Source of the DNA: a virus
DNA: 64,000 bases
Virus record (IMG/VR): IMGVR_UViG_3300024999_001421
Reading direction: 5' to 3' (one strand)
The notes under the pieces are model-generated. The model saw only the letters and a program-made list of their open reading frames with translations. It ran no database searches and had not been told where the DNA came from. Positions 21,586-39,756 of the stretch are shown here, in pieces. Each line of letters begins with the position of its first letter. Within the stretch, counting starts at the first letter, position 1. A program made the position numbers and the translations under genes.

Positions 21586-22419
21586 GTGTATATTTTGATA
21601 GAGAAATGCCCAAGATGCGGCAAGGAATTTAATGCAACCAGATCGCAGAAGTATTGTAGTTCTGAGTGCAGGGAAAATTCAAGGAAAGAAAGGCATTTAA
21701 GACCACCCCTAACTGAAAGAAAGTGTAAATATTGTGGTGTAGTTTTTATGCCTTCGTCTGGTAAGCAAAAATATTGCTGCAAAGAGCATACGTTTAAGGG
21801 AATATACCTTGAAAATGCCGAAGAAAAGAAAGAGAAGTCTCGTGAATATAGACTTAAAAATATTGATGCTATTCGCCTAAAAGATAGGGAGCGTAACGCT
21901 AAAAGAATGGATTATAAAAGGGCGAGTGATGCAAAAAATCACGACAAAACAAGATTCTCAGGAAATAGGGAATTGGTTTTGGAGCGTGATGGATATAAAT
22001 GTGTTGAATGTGGTGCAGTAGAAAAACTTGCTGTCCACCACAAGGACCATACCGGACAAACAGAAAACCGCAACGATGATCCTAGCAACCTAATTACCCT
22101 ATGTTCATCTTGTCACGGCAAACAGCACGGCAAACCAATTAATCAAGAAATACATATAATTGCGGTATGCGGTGTTTGTGGTAAGGAGTTTAATACAACA
22201 ACCTACCTCATAGAGGGTGGCAGGGGTAAGTATTGTAGTGCGGAGTGTCAAAAGAAACGTAACTCAAAAACCAATACAGTAACTTTAAACTGCGAATATT
22301 GCGGTAAGGAATTTACAGTACCACTATCGAGATATAAAAGGGGTAAGGTAAAATACGATAGCATGGAATGTCGCAGAGCAGCAGGTTACGCTTGGACAAA
22401 TAAGCAATCAACAAACTAG
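21586..22419 (+). CDS. HNH endonuclease with multiple Zn-ribbon repeats (homing-type)
   Basis: RDGYKCVECG..LAVHHKD..NDDPSNLITLCSSCH; repeated CxxCGKEF...YCS. Confidence 0.85.
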   Translation: MYILIEKCPRCGKEFNATRSQKYCSSECRENSRKERHLRPPLTERKCKYCGVVFMPSSGKQKYCCKEHTFKGIYLENAEEKKEKSREYRLKNIDAIRLKDRERNAKRMDYKRASDAKNHDKTRFSGNRELVLERDGYKCVECGAVEKLAVHHKDHTGQTENRNDDPSNLITLCSSCHGKQHGKPINQEIHIIAVCGVCGKEFNTTTYLIEGGRGKYCSAECQKKRNSKTNTVTLNCEYCGKEFTVPLSRYKRGKVKYDSMECRRAAGYAWTNKQSTN

Positions 22420-32614: not shown

Positions 32615-35600
32615 GTGATTTTATTGGCCTACGATTTATACAAAGGGCCGTATAGTAACTTTAATTCATACAGTCAAAGTAGAGATACTTCCAGGGAAGA
32701 TGCCATTAGAAGGTTGCTTAGTTTTTCGAGCAACCAACAAATAACTAACGATCCTGGCATGGCAGATGTAGATTATAGCACTACAATGCCTCCTGTACCG
32801 GAAATGAAAGTACCTATGCCACCTAAAAGAAGTCTATATGAATCTCTGGATAATAAATTTGGCGGGGTGTTGCCGGGAGGTACTATATTTAAGCCAGGAG
32901 ATTACGGAATAAGCGAAAAGTTTGCGGAAAATAACCCAACTATTAGTCGGGGATTAGCGACGATTGCTAGTCCTTTCAAGGCTATCATGGATAATCCATT
33001 TATGAATCGTTCAAGTCAAACTGCTGGGGAAATCGTTACATTAACCGACAGGCCAGAAAAGACTTCTACCGGTAATGATAACAGGGACATGATTGCCGAT
33101 TTAGTTGGTGGACTTGTTGGTTTTGGTGCTAATCCTGAGAGCGCAGGGGCAAAACTATTTGGACTTAGCGAAAAAGCTATAGCTAAAGGATTGCAGTATA
33201 TCCCCAAAGCTGAAAATTTGCCTAAAATATTGCAAACAGGTGCTAAGATTGGCGGGGCGACAGTCCCGTATGAAGCAACCGTAGCGGCACTGAACGACCG
33301 TGAATTTAAACCGGGAGAAGCGGCAGAGGCAGGCTTGTCTAATGCTGCCCTGGCTATGCTATTACATGGTGCAGGGAGTGCCTTAAGCAAACGCAATACA
33401 CCGCCCAAAACTACTGATTTTAAGATGCCTGAGTATAAAGAACCGGATATGTCAGATTTTACGCCGGAGGAACTGGCTAATTTCAGGAGTAAGTCAAGTC
33501 TTGGGGAGATGATAACTCCTGAGACAGTCACCACTAAAGAGGTAGCGGCGGCGCAGAGAACGCTTAGAAATACGCTGAATGTCGAAAAGGCCAATCAGAT
33601 ACTAAACGAATTCCCGGAACTTGAAAGCGAGTTTCCGCACTTTAGACTACAGCAAGGCGATACAGTTATTCTGCCAAATGGAAAAGAAGCAATAGTTAAA
33701 ACAGCGGACAAGATGATTATTCAAGTTGATGTTGATGGAAAGACGGTTAGTATTGGTCGTAAAGTCGTTAAGGTTCCGGAGGTTAAGACAGAAGTTCCGG
33801 AGGTTGTGAGTGAGGCAATGCCGGAAGTGCCGGAGACTACGACTCCTGAGATTAAACAGCAACCCGTTATTAGCGATGTTCCGCGACTAAATAACAGAAG
33901 TGGTGCCGAGACTTTTGCTGACGAAAATATACCTGATGTATCAGTCAAGCAGGAACCAATTGTCGCGCAGGAAATATTGCCGCAATTAACAGGCGAACCT
34001 GTTAAATTAACAGCAGAACAGCAACAGTCGATAGATAAGTTAGTCAAGGATTCTGGATTCAATTCCCTCGAGGATGCTCGAAAGGCAATAACATCATATA
34101 GAAATATGGTTAATGACGGACAGGTATTTTATCGTGGGGAAATGGTTCCAGAGGGAGCAAAAGGTAAGAAAAATAATATTATCCGTCAAAAAAGCATAGA
34201 AGATGTTCTTAATTGGACTCCTGATAATCTAATCAAGAAGCATGAAGCAAACATAGCAAGACAAGAAAATATAAAGGAAAAGGCACAGGAAATTCTTGAT
34301 ACTACTGATCCGCTTAAGGATTACGGTAAACGCGACAATGCTAAAATGGAAATAGAGAATTCTAACTATTGGATTGGTAATTATCAAAAGGAGATTGATA
34401 AACTTAGGAAGCAGATAAAAAATGACGAAGAAATAAGTAAGATAGCAGAAGAAAACAATCTCCTTTACATTACAAGTCAAAAAGAAAATGCCCTGTCTTA
34501 TGCTAAGCAACTCGAAGGTAAGTCTGAAATATTATTTGGAGAGAAGCCAGAAGGCTATAACCCAACCGTGTATGAGTTAAAAGGAAAATTTGACAATACT
34601 TTTGACTTGACTAAGTATGAGAATGGTCTAATAAGTTTAGACGAAGTAGATAACCTATTAAACGACTTAGGAATTAAGCTAGATGATAAGCAGTTTAACG
34701 AATTTATAAATAGACTTGGTATTGATGAAATGGAACAGAATAGCGGTCAAGTATTTGGTCTATTCCGTGGTGAAAACCTTCCTATCATGCTTAATGCGCT
34801 TAAAAAAGGTAAATACGATTCGGTTCATTATGCGGAAGGATTGCAAGATAACTGGATCGTCTTAGATAGAAATAAGGTTGCTATTAAGGATGATTTAGAT
34901 AAGGCAAGTAAACTTGATTCTGTAACGCAAGACAAGATACTTAGATTTAAGTCTGGGCAGGACAAACCAGCACCTCCCGAAGTATTAAAGGACTATCCTG
35001 AGTTATCCGCAGAAGTAGGAAGTAAGTCTACATCGGAAACTAAAGTCATGGCAGAGGATATCGGACTAAAACCGGAAAAAGCGGAAACTTATGACGAAGG
35101 GACGATTGGGGCGGCAAGGTTAACCGTACCGGAAAAGCAATCAACTCTCCCCGGTACTGACGAAAAAGTCAGGTCGTTTAATGTTTCCGTTGCTAATTCT
35201 GAAATAGCTTCTCCGGACGTTAAAATAGCCAATATTATGGAAATGTATCCAGGAGGACTAGGGGCATATAGCCCCATAAAACTACGTGAGGTAGACGTTG
35301 AAGCACAAAATTTAATTTCCCAGAACATAGAAAAGGCTACTCGCTTTGTTCTTGAAGGAGAAGAACCTTCTGCACTTAAAACAGCAACAGGTATTCGTTT
35401 AATTGAAAAATACCAAAACGCCGGTAATTACGAGAGGGCCATAGATGTTTCGCTAGCTATGGCAGAGAGACTAACGAAAGTTGGTCAAGAAATTAGTGCC
35501 GCTAGAATTATGGGGGCACTAAAACCTGATGGTATTTTAGTTTTTGCACAACGACAAATAAATAAACTTAACAGCGGTAAAAAATTCGGTAAGGACATTG

Positions 35601-37591
35601 AATTAACTCCCGAAATGGCTAAAATACTAAAGGAACTTGCCAATAGACTTAAAAATGCAACCGATGAAAATGCCAGATTGGAGGCAGGTCAAGAATTACA
35701 GGGAGCACTGAATTCTCTAAAACCTTCTGGGATACTTAGAAAAATAGATTCGGCGCAAACCATTTCGATGTTATTAAATCCTAAAACTTTAATTAGGAAC
35801 ACAGTTGGCAATGAAATGTTTTATCGCCTAGAAAGGTTAAATAAAATAGTTGCTACACCTATTGACTGGACAGTTAGTAAACTGACCGGAGCAGACCGCC
35901 AGGTAACATTTAGAACGGCTGGGCAAGGTGGTTACTGGCAGGGATTTTTCAAGGGCGCAAAAGCTGGTTGGAAAGGTGTTAACCCAGAAGGTATACAGAC
36001 ACAATACGACTTGGGTCGATCACCGGCATTTAATATTAATCCCGAAAGAGCTAAAAACGCAAATACGACAACTGGGAAAGTTGTTGGTGGCACATTTGAT
36101 TTTGCTGAAAAAACTATGGCTTATCTTGAAAGAACTCTAGGTGCAGCCTTGAAAGGTTTTGATTTTGCGGCATATACCAGGGCAAAAAATAACACTATTG
36201 GAGAACTAGCTACCTTAAAGGCTATAAATACTACTGGAAAAGCTGATAAGACTATAGTACAGGGGTTTATGAAAGATATTGAGGATAATGTCCTGAATAT
36301 TGCTGACCAATATGGAAAATATGTTACATTTCAAGATAACAATGTTATTTCTCGTGGACTACAAGGAGTAAAGGATGCCTTAAACATAAATCAGGATTGG
36401 GGTGTAGGGAGTGTTATTCTTAAATTCCCACGCACACCGGGGGCTTTAATAGCAAGAGGATTAGAATACTCGCCTGCTGGCTTTCTAAAGTCTGCCTACG
36501 AACTAGCAAAAGTAACAGGTATATTTAAGGGCAATCCTAGTCAAAGAGAAACAACACTTGCGTTATCAAGGGCCATAACTGGCACAGCAGGATTAACTGG
36601 ATTAGGTTATTTTCTTGCCGATCAAGGAATTATAACAGGTTCAATAGAAAAAGATAAAGACCTAAGAGATTTACAGCGACAGACAGGGCAAGGACAATAT
36701 CGTATAAATCTAAGCGCATTATCTAGGTGGGTGCAAAGCGGTTTTAATAAAGATACTGCGCAACCTATTGCTGGTGATAAAATAATTAACTATGATTGGG
36801 CGCAGCCAATTGCAATGGCACTAAGCATAGGCGCAAATATCAGCAAAAACCTTAATGATGGACAAGGCAAACTAGATAATATATCCTCAACTATTGCTGG
36901 TAGTCTTGAAGGTGCTTTAAATACAGTTGCCGAGCAACCTGTTTTGCAAGGTCTTACACGGGCAGTACAAGGATATGATATGGGAGAAAATGTAACCAAT
37001 ACAGTTAAAAATATTCCCTCTAGTTTTGCACCAACATTAGCTAATCAAGTAAGACAGTATATAGACAATACAACTCGCTCAACATATGACCCCTCATGGG
37101 TAGAGGAATCGAAAAATAAAGTTAAAGGCAAAATACCGGGAATTGCTGGCAACTTGCCTGTCGCATATGATACTTTCGGAAAACCGAAGGAAATATATCA
37201 AGATGGAGGTAATGATGCTTTCAATGTATTCTTTAATCCAGCATTTACATCGAAATACAAAGTTCCAGAAGAAGCGAAGTTGGCCATAGAAACATTTAGA
37301 AATACCGGAGAAACAAAGCAACTACCTAGAGTTGCATCTAAGTCATTTACTATTAGTGGGCAAAAAATAGAACTAACTGCCAAAGAATATAGCGATATGC
37401 AAAGGATTGTTGGAGAAAGAACACTAAAAGAATTTTCCAGAATACCGCAAAATGCTAGTGATGACAAAAAGATACGCAGGATGATCGATGCTTTAGGTAA
37501 AGCCGGACTAGAGGGCAGAAAATTTGTATTACAACAAAGGGGTATTGGCTTTAGGAATAAGGGCAATGGGATAGTGCTTAGACAACAATAA
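32615..37591 (+). CDS. Large internal virion/ejection (polyvalent-type) protein
   Basis: 1658 aa, last structural gene; central segment with an ART-like motif order. Confidence 0.65.
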   Translation: MILLAYDLYKGPYSNFNSYSQSRDTSREDAIRRLLSFSSNQQITNDPGMADVDYSTTMPPVPEMKVPMPPKRSLYESLDNKFGGVLPGGTIFKPGDYGISEKFAENNPTISRGLATIASPFKAIMDNPFMNRSSQTAGEIVTLTDRPEKTSTGNDNRDMIADLVGGLVGFGANPESAGAKLFGLSEKAIAKGLQYIPKAENLPKILQTGAKIGGATVPYEATVAALNDREFKPGEAAEAGLSNAALAMLLHGAGSALSKRNTPPKTTDFKMPEYKEPDMSDFTPEELANFRSKSSLGEMITPETVTTKEVAAAQRTLRNTLNVEKANQILNEFPELESEFPHFRLQQGDTVILPNGKEAIVKTADKMIIQVDVDGKTVSIGRKVVKVPEVKTEVPEVVSEAMPEVPETTTPEIKQQPVISDVPRLNNRSGAETFADENIPDVSVKQEPIVAQEILPQLTGEPVKLTAEQQQSIDKLVKDSGFNSLEDARKAITSYRNMVNDGQVFYRGEMVPEGAKGKKNNIIRQKSIEDVLNWTPDNLIKKHEANIARQENIKEKAQEILDTTDPLKDYGKRDNAKMEIENSNYWIGNYQKEIDKLRKQIKNDEEISKIAEENNLLYITSQKENALSYAKQLEGKSEILFGEKPEGYNPTVYELKGKFDNTFDLTKYENGLISLDEVDNLLNDLGIKLDDKQFNEFINRLGIDEMEQNSGQVFGLFRGENLPIMLNALKKGKYDSVHYAEGLQDNWIVLDRNKVAIKDDLDKASKLDSVTQDKILRFKSGQDKPAPPEVLKDYPELSAEVGSKSTSETKVMAEDIGLKPEKAETYDEGTIGAARLTVPEKQSTLPGTDEKVRSFNVSVANSEIASPDVKIANIMEMYPGGLGAYSPIKLREVDVEAQNLISQNIEKATRFVLEGEEPSALKTATGIRLIEKYQNAGNYERAIDVSLAMAERLTKVGQEISAARIMGALKPDGILVFAQRQINKLNSGKKFGKDIELTPEMAKILKELANRLKNATDENARLEAGQELQGALNSLKPSGILRKIDSAQTISMLLNPKTLIRNTVGNEMFYRLERLNKIVATPIDWTVSKLTGADRQVTFRTAGQGGYWQGFFKGAKAGWKGVNPEGIQTQYDLGRSPAFNINPERAKNANTTTGKVVGGTFDFAEKTMAYLERTLGAALKGFDFAAYTRAKNNTIGELATLKAINTTGKADKTIVQGFMKDIEDNVLNIADQYGKYVTFQDNNVISRGLQGVKDALNINQDWGVGSVILKFPRTPGALIARGLEYSPAGFLKSAYELAKVTGIFKGNPSQRETTLALSRAITGTAGLTGLGYFLADQGIITGSIEKDKDLRDLQRQTGQGQYRINLSALSRWVQSGFNKDTAQPIAGDKIINYDWAQPIAMALSIGANISKNLNDGQGKLDNISSTIAGSLEGALNTVAEQPVLQGLTRAVQGYDMGENVTNTVKNIPSSFAPTLANQVRQYIDNTTRSTYDPSWVEESKNKVKGKIPGIAGNLPVAYDTFGKPKEIYQDGGNDAFNVFFNPAFTSKYKVPEEAKLAIETFRNTGETKQLPRVASKSFTISGQKIELTAKEYSDMQRIVGERTLKEFSRIPQNASDDKKIRRMIDALGKAGLEGRKFVLQQRGIGFRNKGNGIVLRQQ

Positions 37592-37978: not shown

Positions 37979-38182
37979 TTATTTACCGTCGACATATTCA
38001 AATAGATCTCCCGGTTGACATCTAAGTGTAGCACAAAGACGATCTATAACTTCCAATGAAACATATTCGTTGGTATTTAGTTTTGCCATAGTGCCTCCAG
38101 ATATTTTGGCTTGTTTCATTAAATCTTGTTTTTTTATATTTTTATCAATCAACATTTTTTGGAATAGTTTATAGCTAATCAA
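37979..38182 (-). CDS. Cro/C1-type HTH regulator (HTH_26/YozG-like)
   Basis: ISYKLF...VSLEVIDRLCATLRCQPGDLFEY. Confidence 0.85.
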   Translation of the reverse strand: MISYKLFQKMLIDKNIKKQDLMKQAKISGGTMAKLNTNEYVSLEVIDRLCATLRCQPGDLFEYVDGK

Positions 38183-38264: not shown

Positions 38265-38292
38265 TTGACTTATATTTATGATATGTTATAAT
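38265..38292 (+). promoter_or_regulatory. Sigma-A promoter for the RAMP-HNH operon
   Basis: TTGACT-16 bp-TATAAT with extended TGn. Confidence 0.7.
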
Positions 38293-38351: not shown

Positions 38352-38984
38352 ATGGGCAAAAACATTCTAACGGCAACAATCGAAATAAAAGGAATTAGAC
38401 CTCTGTTGTGGCATGTATTTGGTCCTGATTCTTTGCCACTTGAAAAACAAGAGAGGACAGGAGTTGCCGGACACGATCCGGAGGAATGGCGCAAAACATA
38501 TGTAGCAACCAAGAGTGGACAGTTATATTTACCTGGTTCTTATTTCTTCGGAACATACATTGCAGGCGCTAAGTTCATTAAGAAGGGCAAAGGCTCAATT
38601 CAAAGTTTGGTATCAGCAACATTGCAGGTACTTGATGATAAGGTATTGGTTAATCGTAATTTACCGGAAGATATTCACGAAAAACCGCATAAGTATTATA
38701 ATGCTGACGAAGAATTGGTTTATATTGACGTTCGCTCAGTACGTAATCCGTCAACCAAGTCTAGAAACATTCGTTATCGCGTTGCTACTTGCCCCGGATG
38801 GGAGTGTAAATTTTCAATAATGTTCGATAAAACGGTTGTTAGTCGCCAAGAGATGCACTCTGCTATTATTGATGCAGGTAAATTGTCCGGCATTGGCGAT
38901 GGTCGTTCTGTTGGATATGGAAGATTTGATGTATTATCTTTTGAAATACAGGAGGAAGATAATGCCGAGGAAAAGACCTCCTAA
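38352..38984 (+). CDS. Stand-alone Cas7/RAMP-like RNA-binding protein (Vipr-like)
   Basis: First strand IEIKGIRPLLWH, GQLYLPGS (cf. RAMP IPGSS), C-terminal Gly loop AGKLSGIGDGRSVGYGRF. Confidence 0.75.
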   Translation: MGKNILTATIEIKGIRPLLWHVFGPDSLPLEKQERTGVAGHDPEEWRKTYVATKSGQLYLPGSYFFGTYIAGAKFIKKGKGSIQSLVSATLQVLDDKVLVNRNLPEDIHEKPHKYYNADEELVYIDVRSVRNPSTKSRNIRYRVATCPGWECKFSIMFDKTVVSRQEMHSAIIDAGKLSGIGDGRSVGYGRFDVLSFEIQEEDNAEEKTS

Positions 38985-39252
38985 AGAAATATGGCAAAAA
39001 CTAAGAACAATAGTCTGGGAACGAGATAAGGGTAAATGTAAGCACTGTGGCAAACTAGTTGACTTAGATAAATGTCACATAGATCATATTCGTTCTGGTA
39101 AGTTAGGAACAAATAAGTTAAGCAATCTTAGAACTCTATGTCGTTGCTGTCATGTTTTGCGTGAGGATGGGCGACATAGAGGGATGATTAGCAAGGCACT
39201 TAAAGATGGTATTATTCCTCCGAATTGGCGTGAGTTGGTTTGGGGTGATTAA
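38962..39252 (+). CDS. HNH endonuclease (96 aa) overlapping the RAMP-like gene
   Basis: GGAGGA RBS at 38951; RDKGKCKHCG..HIDHI..GTNKLSNLRTLCRCCH. Confidence 0.85.
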   Translation: MPRKRPPKEIWQKLRTIVWERDKGKCKHCGKLVDLDKCHIDHIRSGKLGTNKLSNLRTLCRCCHVLREDGRHRGMISKALKDGIIPPNWRELVWGD

Positions 39253-39271
39253 TATACTGTATAATTAATCA

Positions 39272-39366
39272 GGTCGGGAACGAAGCGGAATGGTGAGTTG
39301 CGGTCCGGAGTGGTACGGAGAGCTGAGGCATGGCACGTTAAGGTGCGCAATGAAATGGTAAGGATT
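39272..39366 (+). ncRNA. Pentamer-period array 1 (19 x G[G]H-NN), candidate guide RNA
   Basis: 19/19 units start with G, 13/19 with GG, third base never G; TATAAT at 39260-39265 just upstream. Confidence 0.8.
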
Positions 39367-39370
39367 CGAA

Positions 39371-39410
39371 ACTACCCTTCGGGGTAGTCCTACAGGTTAG
39401 CCTCCTGTAG
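39371..39410 (+). other. Two hairpins between the arrays (candidate processing/handle)
   Basis: ACTACCC-TTCG-GGGTAGT (UUCG loop) and CTACAGG..CCTGTAG. Confidence 0.7.
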
Positions 39411-39430
39411 TTGACAAGATGGGCTAACAT

Positions 39431-39515
39431 GGAAAGGTCTGGACTGGAACGGAACGTAGGGGCATGGAAAGTTCCGGAGTGGTTTGGTTCGGATTGGCTA
39501 GTTAAGGCAAGGGTA
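39431..39515 (+). ncRNA. Pentamer-period array 2 (17 x G[G]H-NN), candidate guide RNA
   Basis: 17/17 units start with G, 14/17 with GG; third base is G only in the last unit. Confidence 0.8.
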
Positions 39516-39517
39516 AT

Positions 39518-39557
39518 AAGAGAAATAACCACTTCATATGAAGTGGTTATTTCTCTT
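39518..39557. terminator. Perfect 40-bp palindrome, probable bidirectional terminator closing the arrays
   Basis: AAGAGAAATAACCACTTCATATGAAGTGGTTATTTCTCTT. Confidence 0.75.
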
Positions 39558-39756
39558 CCGGCACATATTCAAATAAATCTCCTGGCTGACATTTGAGGAC
39601 TTGACACAACTTGCTGATCTGCTCTATCTCTATTCTCCTAGAAGTACCGTGCCATAACTGACTTACTGTATTTGGCCTAATTCCTGTCATAATGGATAAT
39701 TGTTTCATTGTTATTTTTCTTTTACCCATCATATCTGATACTTTTATTATCATCAT
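39547..39756 (-). CDS. Cro/C1-type HTH regulator (HTH_26/YozG-like)
   Basis: LSIMTGIRPNTVSQL...KLCQVLKCQPGDLFEY. Confidence 0.85.
   Translation of the reverse strand: MMIIKVSDMMGKRKITMKQLSIMTGIRPNTVSQLWHGTSRRIEIEQISKLCQVLKCQPGDLFEYVPEEK

What the first reader, a model, noticed from the sequence alone, without database searches (positions are those of the whole stretch)
38951..39252. HNH nuclease wedged between the RAMP-like gene and its arrays
Seen: the HNH RBS and start lie inside the 3' end of the RAMP-like gene (23-nt overlap), and its stop is 20 nt before array 1. It is minimal and lacks the extra DNA-binding modules of the two homing-type HNHs at 21586 and 56336. Inference: a dedicated effector recruited by the RNP, analogous to HNH-bearing class 1 CRISPR variants, which would make the system cutting rather than only repressing.
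Basis: partly seen in the sequence, partly recalled or inferred. Interest (0 to 1): 0.75.

Follow-up and report, generated by a model that had tools for sequence, protein, structure and literature searches.

The report
HNH nuclease partner of phage VIPR
The small HNH nuclease is real and is the constant partner of a Cas7-like protein and its five-base-repeat guide RNAs, a phage system described in 2026 preprints as VIPR; whether the nuclease cuts the DNA that the guides find is still untested.

Summary
Observation confirmed. A 96-aa HNH gene (38962-39252) starts 23 nt inside the upstream RAMP-like gene (38352-38984), and its stop lies 20 nt before the first GG of the first pentamer array.

The locus is a VIPR system, described in three bioRxiv preprints of 2026.
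- The profile of the RAMP family hits the solved SUSP1 Vipr protein (E 3.5e-9), and its model resembles Csm3/Cas7.
- The arrays are HNNG(G) pentamers split by a type II hammerhead.

The HNH is an obligate partner.
- 34 of 36 genomic vipr loci carry it just downstream.
- 76 of 80 metagenomic and 9 of 10 viral HNH-clade loci have vipr just upstream; four of the five without it are cut off by a contig end.
- Gene order and spacing vary, and the two protein families co-diverge.

Under the published 1-nt-skip rule, both guides find in-frame targets in other phages (31/32 and 27/28 bases). One target is a VIPR-less relative from a metagenome that also holds a VIPR+ phage whose Vipr is 96% identical.

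The preprints list HNH among the accessory proteins and predict nucleases for some VIPR types, but none tests one. So "dedicated effector" is well supported by comparative genomics, while recruitment and guide-dependent cutting remain inference. It is a new member of a known, very recent kind. Earlier notes of this scan cover this same stretch only, not other DNA.

The parts
38265..38292 (+). promoter-like site (TTGACT-16-TATAAT, with TG) upstream of vipr
   Evidence: Consensus scan, 11 of 12 matches. A consensus match only.
38352..38984 (+). vipr: 210-aa Cas7-like RAMP protein
   Evidence: Family profile hits PDB 36pp_D 'SUSP1 Vipr protein', E 3.5e-9, over the full length. Model pLDDT 82, top Foldseek hits Csm3/Cas7 at E 3e-9. 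Conserved G-loop G.GDGR..G.GRF. phrog_4652.
38950..38955 (+). AGGAGG ribosome-binding site of the HNH gene, inside the 3' end of vipr
   Evidence: Read directly from the sequence.
38962..39252 (+). HNH accessory (vap-type) nuclease, 96 aa, overlapping vipr by 23 nt
   Evidence: Pfam HNH above its cut-off. Catalytic D-H, N, H and the zinc cysteines are conserved, and there is a clade-specific C-terminal tail RHRGM..AL.DGIIPPNWRELVW. Linked to vipr in 34/36, 76/80 and 9/10 loci.
39269..39363 (+). vrRNA1 array: 19 HNNG(G) pentamers; units 1-16 (39269-39348) act as the guide
   Evidence: Pentamer register. 31/32 match to L137/L138 under the 1-nt-skip rule.
39364..39432 (+). type II hammerhead ribozyme between the arrays; core UUGACAAG (U3/A8 instead of C3/G8); predicted cut after GUC at 39389
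   Evidence: A model built from 25 canonical hammerheads of other VIPR loci gives one hit in the window: 54 bits, E 7e-13. Not reported by Rfam at E<=1.
39428..39512 (+). vrRNA2 array: 17 pentamers; units 1-14 act as the guide; conserved end GTTAAGGCAAGG
   Evidence: Register. 27/28 match to L133 and 10-unit exact matches in five more contigs.
39518..39557 (.). perfect 20+20 nt palindrome, a likely bidirectional terminator that closes the operon
   Evidence: Inverted repeat I1. Inferred function.
37979..38182 (-). HTH_26 regulator gene flanking the module (context)
   Evidence: Pfam HTH_26, E 1e-20.
39547..39756 (-). second HTH_26 regulator gene, convergent with the module (context)
   Evidence: Pfam HTH_26, E 1.7e-21. 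A homologue sits at the same place in the VIPR-less relative L138.
35170..35230 (+). the phage's own allele of the vrRNA1 target region, inside the 1658-aa gene 32615-37591; diverged, so not a target
   Evidence: DNA homology to L137 ends at window 35169, about 10 nt before the target. The proteins read ..KVRSF|NVSVANSEI.. here against ..KVRSF|QRTAIDAPV.. in the target. No self-match above the shuffled background.

Best explanation
The 96-aa HNH is the dedicated accessory ('Vap') nuclease of a phage-borne VIPR system.

Shown or well supported:
- One promoter-to-terminator unit encodes Vipr (a Cas7-like RAMP), the HNH (whose start overlaps the vipr stop, suggesting coupled translation) and two guide RNAs.
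- The guides are made of HNNG(G) pentamers and are separated by a type II hammerhead.
- The variable NN dinucleotides, read with one skipped base per pair, match coding DNA of other phages.

Taken from the preprints on other VIPR types: Vipr polymerises one protomer per pentamer, hides the GG(Y) bases, presents the NN bases and binds double-stranded DNA as an R-loop triplex.

Inferred here: the HNH, a single-active-site beta-beta-alpha-metal nuclease, acts on the DNA held by that filament. It may dock through its clade-specific C-terminal tail or sense the distorted DNA. It would nick or cut, turning silencing of a rival phage into destruction of its genome. The array DNA itself escapes because its NN pairs are 3 nt apart, not 1.
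For: - Membership in VIPR: profile hit to the solved SUSP1 Vipr, a Csm3/Cas7-like model, and pentamer arrays in the loci that were inspected.
- Hammerhead-split arrays, as the preprint describes: seven Rfam Hammerhead_II hits in L018 and the window element.
- Obligate linkage, vipr to HNH: 34/36 genome loci. The two exceptions are a contig end and a vipr fragment.
- Obligate linkage, HNH to vipr: 76/80 metagenome loci. Three exceptions are cut by contig ends, and one (L067) is a vipr deletion that keeps the array. In viral contigs it is 9 of 10, the tenth being cut by a contig end.
- The gene order changes (vipr-HNH-array, or vipr-array-HNH as in L003) while the link persists.
- The distance matrices of the two families correlate: r 0.42, against a maximum of 0.26 in 500 permutations.
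- The catalytic residues are invariant.
- Loci whose arrays are split by ribozymes still keep the HNH, so it is not there merely to process RNA.
- Targets: vrRNA1 matches 31/32 bases and vrRNA2 27/28, both in frame with the skipped base at wobble positions. Reversed-order control patterns gave 0 hits.
- Both guides have the sense of the coding strand, so they could pair with the template DNA strand but not with the mRNA.
- The preprints state that some VIPR types carry predicted nucleases and list HNH among accessory-protein domains.
Against: - No experiment on any HNH accessory protein exists in the three preprints.
- No natural Vipr-HNH fusion was found that would prove contact.
- The characterised VIPR (type II) works by repression alone, with a non-catalytic accessory protein, so cutting is not required for function.
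- A nuclease in a phage-borne system fits poorly with the preprint's statement that the nuclease types sit mainly in host defence islands. Here the window is a phage genome.
- A 96-aa HNH with one active site would nick rather than make a double-strand break, unless it dimerises or acts twice.
Confidence: 0.6

Rival explanations
1. The HNH is a collateral or signal-type nuclease. Target binding by the Vipr filament switches it on, and it then degrades DNA without regard to the guide, for example the rival's or the host's DNA at large, rather than cutting at the bound site.
For: Small stand-alone HNH effectors that are activated in trans exist: CBASS Cap5 is among the structural neighbours. No docking interface could be demonstrated. 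Several related loci sit beside CBASS or restriction genes.
Against: The system is carried by a phage, whose own DNA would be exposed to indiscriminate cutting. The protein has no sensor domain (96 aa).
Confidence: 0.12
2. The HNH matures or trims the guide RNAs, or sets filament length, and so acts on RNA rather than on the target DNA.
For: Most loci lack ribozymes between arrays: the strict motif scan found hammerheads in only 18 of 131 sequences (130 loci plus the window). Something must therefore process those transcripts, and no Cas6-like enzyme is encoded.
Against: Loci with a hammerhead at every junction keep the HNH: L018 has seven. HNH enzymes are DNases as a rule (established knowledge of PF01844). 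Type II VIPR makes mature vrRNAs in E. coli without any nuclease accessory protein.
Confidence: 0.08
3. The HNH is an ordinary protein-guided homing endonuclease that mobilises the vipr cassette. Its link to vipr would then be hitch-hiking rather than shared function.
For: Free-standing HNH homing genes are common in phages; the window has two others. The cassette is present or absent at the same slot in related phages.
Against: It has no DNA-binding module. The neighbours of the cassette differ widely between loci and phyla, so no conserved homing site exists. It is conserved at 60-90% identity with invariant clade-specific residues, and it co-diverges with vipr.
Confidence: 0.06
4. The HNH fold serves only as a DNA-binding or clamp subunit that strengthens silencing, as Vap1 does in type II, without catalysis.
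For: Vap1 of SUSP1 enhances protection and is required in vivo without being an enzyme.
Against: The general-base D-H pair, both Asn residues and the metal-binding His are invariant in 25 diverse homologues. That is not expected for a purely structural role.
Confidence: 0.08

Closest known systems
VIPR systems (Viral Interference Programmable Repeat; bioRxiv 10.64898/2026.04.26.720920, 10.64898/2026.04.26.720927, 10.64898/2026.10.15.759431), in particular the types said to carry predicted nuclease accessory (vap) genes (III-V)
   Same: - A Vipr RAMP homologous to the SUSP1 Vipr.
- A two-gene vipr+vap operon.
- Guide RNAs of GG-anchored pentamers with hypervariable NN, and hammerhead-interspersed arrays.
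- Targets found in IMG/VR by the 1-nt-skip rule, aligned to the wobble position.
- No self-target.
   Different: - Only about 20% identical to the characterised type II Vipr.
- Position 1 of the pentamer is A/T/C rather than a pyrimidine, and the second G is often degenerate.
- The arrays hold 17-19 units.
- The accessory protein is a 96-aa HNH, whereas the SUSP1 (type II) Vap1 is a predicted DNA-binding protein.
- The carrier is a phage, whereas the preprint places the nuclease types mainly in host defence islands.
- I could not assign the type (III or V), because the preprint's data tables are not held.
HNH-bearing class 1 CRISPR effectors (type I-E Cas5-HNH Cascade, PDB 8yha/8zlu; type I-F Cas8-HNH)
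   Same: A RAMP backbone polymerised on a guide RNA, together with an HNH nuclease. These HNH domains are among the structural neighbours.
   Different: There the HNH is fused to a Cascade subunit. The guide is a contiguous spacer with a 6-nt period from a CRISPR array, and cas1/cas2 adaptation genes exist. Here the HNH is a separate 96-aa protein, the guide is gapped with a 5-nt period, and there is no CRISPR array.
TIGR-Tas (TasH), a phage-associated tandem-spacer guide system with an HNH (from my own knowledge of Faure et al. 2025, not re-read here)
   Same: Phage-borne, with compact arrays of short guide units, a split (non-contiguous) guide and an HNH nuclease option.
   Different: Tas proteins have a Nop domain, not a RAMP fold, and the HNH is fused. 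The unit is a 36-nt tigRNA with two spacers, not pentamers.
Free-standing phage HNH homing endonucleases (such as the window's own 21586 and 56336 genes)
   Same: The HNH catalytic fold and phage residence. The cassette-carrying genome has a resistant allele at a site cut in relatives.
   Different: Those enzymes carry their own DNA-binding modules and recognise the target by protein. This one has none and is tied to an RNA-guided partner.

Membership tests
VIPR system | A Vipr protein: a single-RRM RAMP with G-loop and thumb, homologous to the described Vipr proteins | tested here: met
   The profile of 24 family members hits PDB 36pp_D 'SUSP1 Vipr protein' at E 3.5e-9 over residues 9-193. 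Model pLDDT is 82, and 195 PDB chains match at E<=1e-3, led by Csm3/Cas7. The G-loop is conserved.
VIPR system | vrRNAs of tandem pentamers in which conserved GG(Y) alternates with hypervariable NN, followed by a conserved 3' end | tested here: met
   There are 19 and 17 units. G occupies position 4 in all of them, GG is present in 13/19 and 14/17, and position 1 is never G. The NN strings differ between phages with near-identical Vipr proteins. The same kind of arrays occurs in the related loci inspected. One deviation: position 1 is A/T/C, not only a pyrimidine.
VIPR system | A minimal vipr + vap operon | tested here: met
   vipr and the HNH lie adjacent on one strand in the window and in 119 related loci. 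The module holds only vipr, the HNH and the arrays. Absence of cas genes or CRISPR arrays was not searched for.
VIPR system | Guides specify DNA targets by the 1-nt-skip (NNx) rule, targets lie in mobile elements, and there is no self-targeting | tested here: met
   vrRNA1 matches 31/32 bases in L137/L138, and vrRNA2 27/28 in L133 plus five partial targets. Reversed-order controls gave 0 hits. The best self-match lies within the shuffled background. This is computational only.
VIPR system | Vipr-vrRNA filament formation and binding of double-stranded DNA | not testable with these tools
   Needs biochemistry. No RNA run holds the locus.
VIPR type III or V (nuclease-bearing types) | Position in the Vipr phylogeny and the vap cluster as defined in the preprint's data S4 | not testable with these tools
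   No supplementary files are held. The text names HNH only in the legend of fig. S21.
HNH endonuclease (Pfam PF01844) | A beta-beta-alpha-metal core with the His general base, Asn, the metal-binding His and a Cys4 zinc site | tested here: met
   28.4 bits against a cut-off of 21.4. D41-H42, N51, N55, H64, C26 and C60 are invariant, and C29 and C63 nearly so. The model's neighbours are all HNH nucleases, although weakly (E 3e-3 and worse).
HNH-Cascade (class 1 CRISPR with fused HNH) | The HNH is fused to a Cascade subunit, and the system has a CRISPR repeat-spacer array | tested here: not met
   The HNH stands alone in all loci. The only 'fusion' (P0394) looks like a frameshift read-through, and the other long forms are ORFs that run through arrays. 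The arrays are pentamers, not repeat-spacer units.
Free-standing homing HNH endonuclease | Its own DNA-binding module and a conserved insertion or target context | tested here: not met
   No extra domain. The flanking genes differ widely between loci.

The most novel reading that the evidence does not exclude
The HNH-armed VIPR may act as an RNA-guided homing or marker-exclusion device, a natural gene drive among phages.

vrRNA1 targets the large gene that lies about 3 kb upstream of the cassette. The target is in a closely related phage that lacks the cassette, and that phage comes from a metagenome that also holds a near-identical VIPR+ phage. The carrier's own allele diverges starting at the target site.

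A cut there during co-infection would be repaired from the carrier genome. Repair would copy the resistant allele and, with it, the neighbouring vipr-HNH-array cassette into the rival. This mirrors what protein-guided free-standing homing endonucleases do.
Probability: 0.12. Interest if true: 0.85.

Novelty: new member of a known kind. Interest (0 to 1): 0.45.

Why it matters
VIPR is a months-old discovery: an RNA-guided DNA-recognition system with a gapped code, proposed as a forerunner of CRISPR. Only its repressing form (type II) has been studied. The nuclease-bearing forms are merely listed as predicted.

This locus gives a compact test case, about 1.3 kb with two small proteins. The HNH is shown by comparative genomics to be an obligate partner. 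Concrete natural target sites are now known, and a resistant self allele and a VIPR-less sister phage are at hand.

If the HNH cuts at guide-bound sites, the system would be a very small programmable nuclease with no PAM-like requirement reported so far. It would also show that phages use destructive as well as silencing RNA-guided weapons against each other, which qualifies the preprint's view that the nuclease types serve mainly as host defence.

Tried and rejected
- **Complex prediction of Vipr with the HNH** (both as alignments): no verdict, score 0.29 against a mark of 0.32. It is not evidence either way.
- **Sequencing runs**: no RNA holder is listed. The only holders are DNA runs from groundwater metagenomes, so nothing can be said on expression, and I did not lay reads.
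- **Own genome:** none is held, so host and self-target scans were limited to the 64-kb window.
- **Rfam on the window at E<=1**: only terminator look-alikes. The hammerhead was missed because of its U3/A8 core and was recovered with a purpose-built model.
- **Cultured phage genomes:** tblastn of Vipr against 50,697 records gave no match. The HNH found only relatives below 40% identity there. The clade is therefore absent from cultured phage genomes, which also means no annotated reference exists.
- **vrRNA1 units 1-10 as an exact pattern:** 0 hits, explained later by the single mismatch at unit 2.
- **My first impression that the LPD38 target protein of vrRNA2 is homologous to the window's 1658-aa protein:** rejected by BLASTP.
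- **Ideas considered before the literature search and dropped:** CsrA-type GGA sponge RNA, G-quadruplex repeats, iterons or a packaging site, TRAP-like binding. All were superseded by the match to VIPR.
- **Search for fused Vipr-HNH proteins**: only gene-calling artefacts and one probable frameshift.
- **Context tally of neighbours**: mixed phage and defence genes, not decisive for 'phage' against 'defence island' across the whole clade.

Full report
**1.

The + strand carries a 210-aa ORF at 38352-38984. A 96-aa ORF follows, with its ATG at 38962, preceded by AGGAGG at 38950-38955. The two overlap by 23 nt, and the second ORF ends at 39252. All 24 aligned homologues begin MP(K/R)..RPP at this ATG, so the longer TTG ORF that the ORF lister gives is not the gene.

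The protein passes Pfam's HNH threshold. It keeps the D-H, Asn and His catalytic residues and the four zinc cysteines, which are invariant or nearly so across 25 homologues. It folds confidently (pLDDT 90). Its structural neighbours are all HNH nucleases, though the matches are weak (best E 3e-3): T4 endonuclease VII, Cas9 HNH domains, Cap5, a 97-aa nicking HNH and HNH-Cascade.

**2. What lies around the HNH**

Downstream of the HNH are two runs of pentamers, 19 units from 39269 and 17 units from 39428. Position 4 is always G, position 5 is mostly G, and position 1 is never G.

Between the runs lies a structured element. A covariance model built from 25 canonical hammerheads found in other loci of this family identifies it as a type II hammerhead: one hit in 64 kb, at 39364-39432, 54 bits, E 7e-13. 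Its core reads UUGACAAG instead of CUGAUGAG, so both partners of the C3-G8 pair have changed, to U3-A8. This is why Rfam missed it.

The unit starts at a promoter-like site (38265-38292) and ends at a perfect 20+20 palindrome. The whole window is a phage genome, with small and large terminase, portal, endolysin and anti-repressor.

**3. What the system is**

The upstream protein belongs to a large family of unnamed proteins of about 200 aa: 1293 hits and 436 cluster representatives. They share a glycine-rich loop.

A literature search found three bioRxiv preprints of 2026 describing VIPR systems. A VIPR system has three parts:
- a Vipr RAMP protein;
- vrRNAs made of YNNGG pentamers, whose NN dinucleotides read double-stranded DNA while skipping every third base;
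- an accessory vap gene.

The preprints describe seven types, some with hammerhead-interspersed arrays, and some (III-V) with predicted nucleases or helicases. HNH is listed among the accessory-protein domains.

The family profile hits the solved SUSP1 Vipr protein over its full length (E 3.5e-9). The AlphaFold model resembles Csm3/Cas7 (E 3e-9). The locus is therefore a VIPR system, distant from the characterised type II. I could not assign the type, because the supplementary tables are not held.

**4. The link between the HNH and vipr**

*From vipr to the HNH.* Of 36 loci in species-representative genomes from Bacillota, Chloroflexota, Acidobacteriota, Armatimonadota, Cyanobacteria, Chlamydiota, Actinomycetota and Parcubacteria, 34 have the HNH next downstream on the same strand. 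One exception ends 292 nt after vipr, and the other is a vipr fragment.

*From the HNH to vipr.* All 9 viral contigs with upstream DNA have vipr. Of the 80 best metagenomic loci, 76 have it. Three of the rest are cut by contig ends. The fourth, L067, has lost vipr and the HNH start but keeps an array, so it is a deletion derivative.

*Other evidence for the link.*
- The spacing runs from the 23-nt overlap seen in the window (about 30 of the 76 loci overlap) to about 470 nt, and larger gaps are often filled by an array, as in L003. The order vipr-array-HNH occurs as well as vipr-HNH-array.
- The pairwise distances of the two families correlate: r 0.42, against a maximum of 0.26 in 500 permutations, for 98 pairs.
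- Neither this Vipr clade nor a close HNH occurs in 50,697 cultured phage records.
- Loci whose arrays are split by hammerheads (seven in L018) keep the HNH.

**5. The guides have real targets**

I decoded the NN dinucleotides, joined them with one wildcard base between pairs, and scanned IMG/VR with 10-unit exact patterns.

*vrRNA1.* Units 4-13 hit two contigs. The match extends to 31 of 32 bases over units 1-16, in frame, spelling QRTAIDAPVTDDMTKA. The site lies in a protein of more than 1936 aa whose N-terminus matches the window's own 1658-aa protein.

These two phages share 71-88% DNA identity with the window in the flanking genes, but they lack vipr and the HNH. One of them comes from the same metagenome as a phage whose Vipr is 96% identical to the window's (contig names).

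The window's own allele loses homology about 10 nt before the target and reads differently there.

*vrRNA2.* This guide matches 27 of 28 bases over units 1-14 in an LPD38 large polyvalent protein gene, and it has 10-unit exact matches in five more contigs.

A sister phage (L053) carries the same guide with AT instead of GT at unit 11. This fits the Ile/Met alleles of L131/L132, whereas the window's GT fits the Val alleles of L133-L136.

*Controls.*
- Reversed-order control patterns gave no hit.
- The window has no 1-nt-skip self-match above the shuffled background.
- The array DNA matches its own guide only at a 3-nt skip.
- Both guides have the sense of the coding strand, so they cannot pair with the mRNA.

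Phages with near-identical Vipr proteins carry quite different guides.

**6. How the HNH most likely works**

Shown: the HNH is a conserved, catalytically intact, obligate member of a DNA-targeting VIPR module carried by a phage and aimed at other phages.

Taken from the preprints: Vipr coats the vrRNA one protomer per pentamer and holds the target as an R-loop triplex. The authors leave open whether accessory nucleases sense this geometry or the filament.

Inferred: the HNH nicks or cuts the bound DNA. Its invariant C-terminal tail, which is specific to this clade, is a candidate docking element. I put this at about 0.6.

The rivals are collateral cutting, RNA maturation, protein-guided homing and a non-catalytic clamp. 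Each has specific evidence against it, listed in the Rival explanations section.

**7. Novelty**

The system and the existence of nuclease accessory proteins are already described, though only in preprints. This is therefore a new member of a known kind.

The report adds:
- quantified, bidirectional linkage of this HNH clade with vipr;
- concrete natural targets, a resistant self allele and guide-target co-variation;
- a phage carrier for a nuclease-bearing type, where the preprint stresses host defence islands;
- a hammerhead with a compensated core pair.

The most novel reading still open is RNA-guided homing of the cassette. It is suggested by the target lying in the syntenic neighbour gene of a cassette-less relative.

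Noticed in passing
window 39364-39432; L053 about 1197-1265: The hammerhead between the arrays has core U3/A8 (UUGACAAG; UUGAUAAG in L053) where 42 other VIPR-linked hammerheads have C3/G8. Both partners of the core pair changed together. The phage with the 96%-identical Vipr (L004) has the canonical core at the same place.
   Followed up: partly
L053 1106-1440 against window 39428-39512: The sister phage L053 has the same vrRNA2 except for unit 11 (AT against GT). The two versions fit two natural alleles (Ile/Met against Val) of the LPD38 target gene. vrRNA1 of L053, and both guides of L004, are unrelated to the window's. Guides therefore turn over quickly between phages with near-identical Vipr proteins.
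   Followed up: partly
L067 2950-3420: An HNH gene with a damaged start and an intact downstream pentamer array but no vipr within 3 kb. This is a vipr-deleted derivative, reminiscent of the 'solo vrRNA' phages in the October 2026 preprint.
   Followed up: partly
P0365 (336 aa): A protein made of two Vipr-like RAMP domains in tandem, each with its own G-loop. It is a fused double Vipr.
   Followed up: no
P0392, P0393, P0395, P0391: Public gene calls extend the HNH ORF through the pentamer arrays, giving spurious G/R/W-rich extensions. P0394 joins vipr and the HNH through what looks like a frameshift.
   Followed up: yes
window 37979-38182 and 39547-39756 (minus strand); other loci: Two paralogous HTH_26 regulator genes bracket the module on the opposite strand. 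HTH regulators and repressors are also the most recurrent neighbours of the module in other genomes. They may control the module.
   Followed up: no
L138 2266-3615: In the VIPR-less relative, the slot between the large gene and the HTH gene holds other small genes (a 180-aa protein with a copper amine oxidase N-terminal-like domain, a 126-aa ORF and a 60-aa ORF). This slot is an accessory-gene hot spot.
   Followed up: partly
L137 11397-11399 and the matching codon in L138: The single mismatch to vrRNA1 is at unit 2. The target uses an AGA arginine codon where the guide expects CGN. The change is synonymous at the protein level and could be an escape change.
   Followed up: no
L039 5553-5658: An Rfam EGFOA RNA (80 bits) lies about 3.5 kb downstream of the module in Metabacillus fastidiosus.
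   Followed up: no
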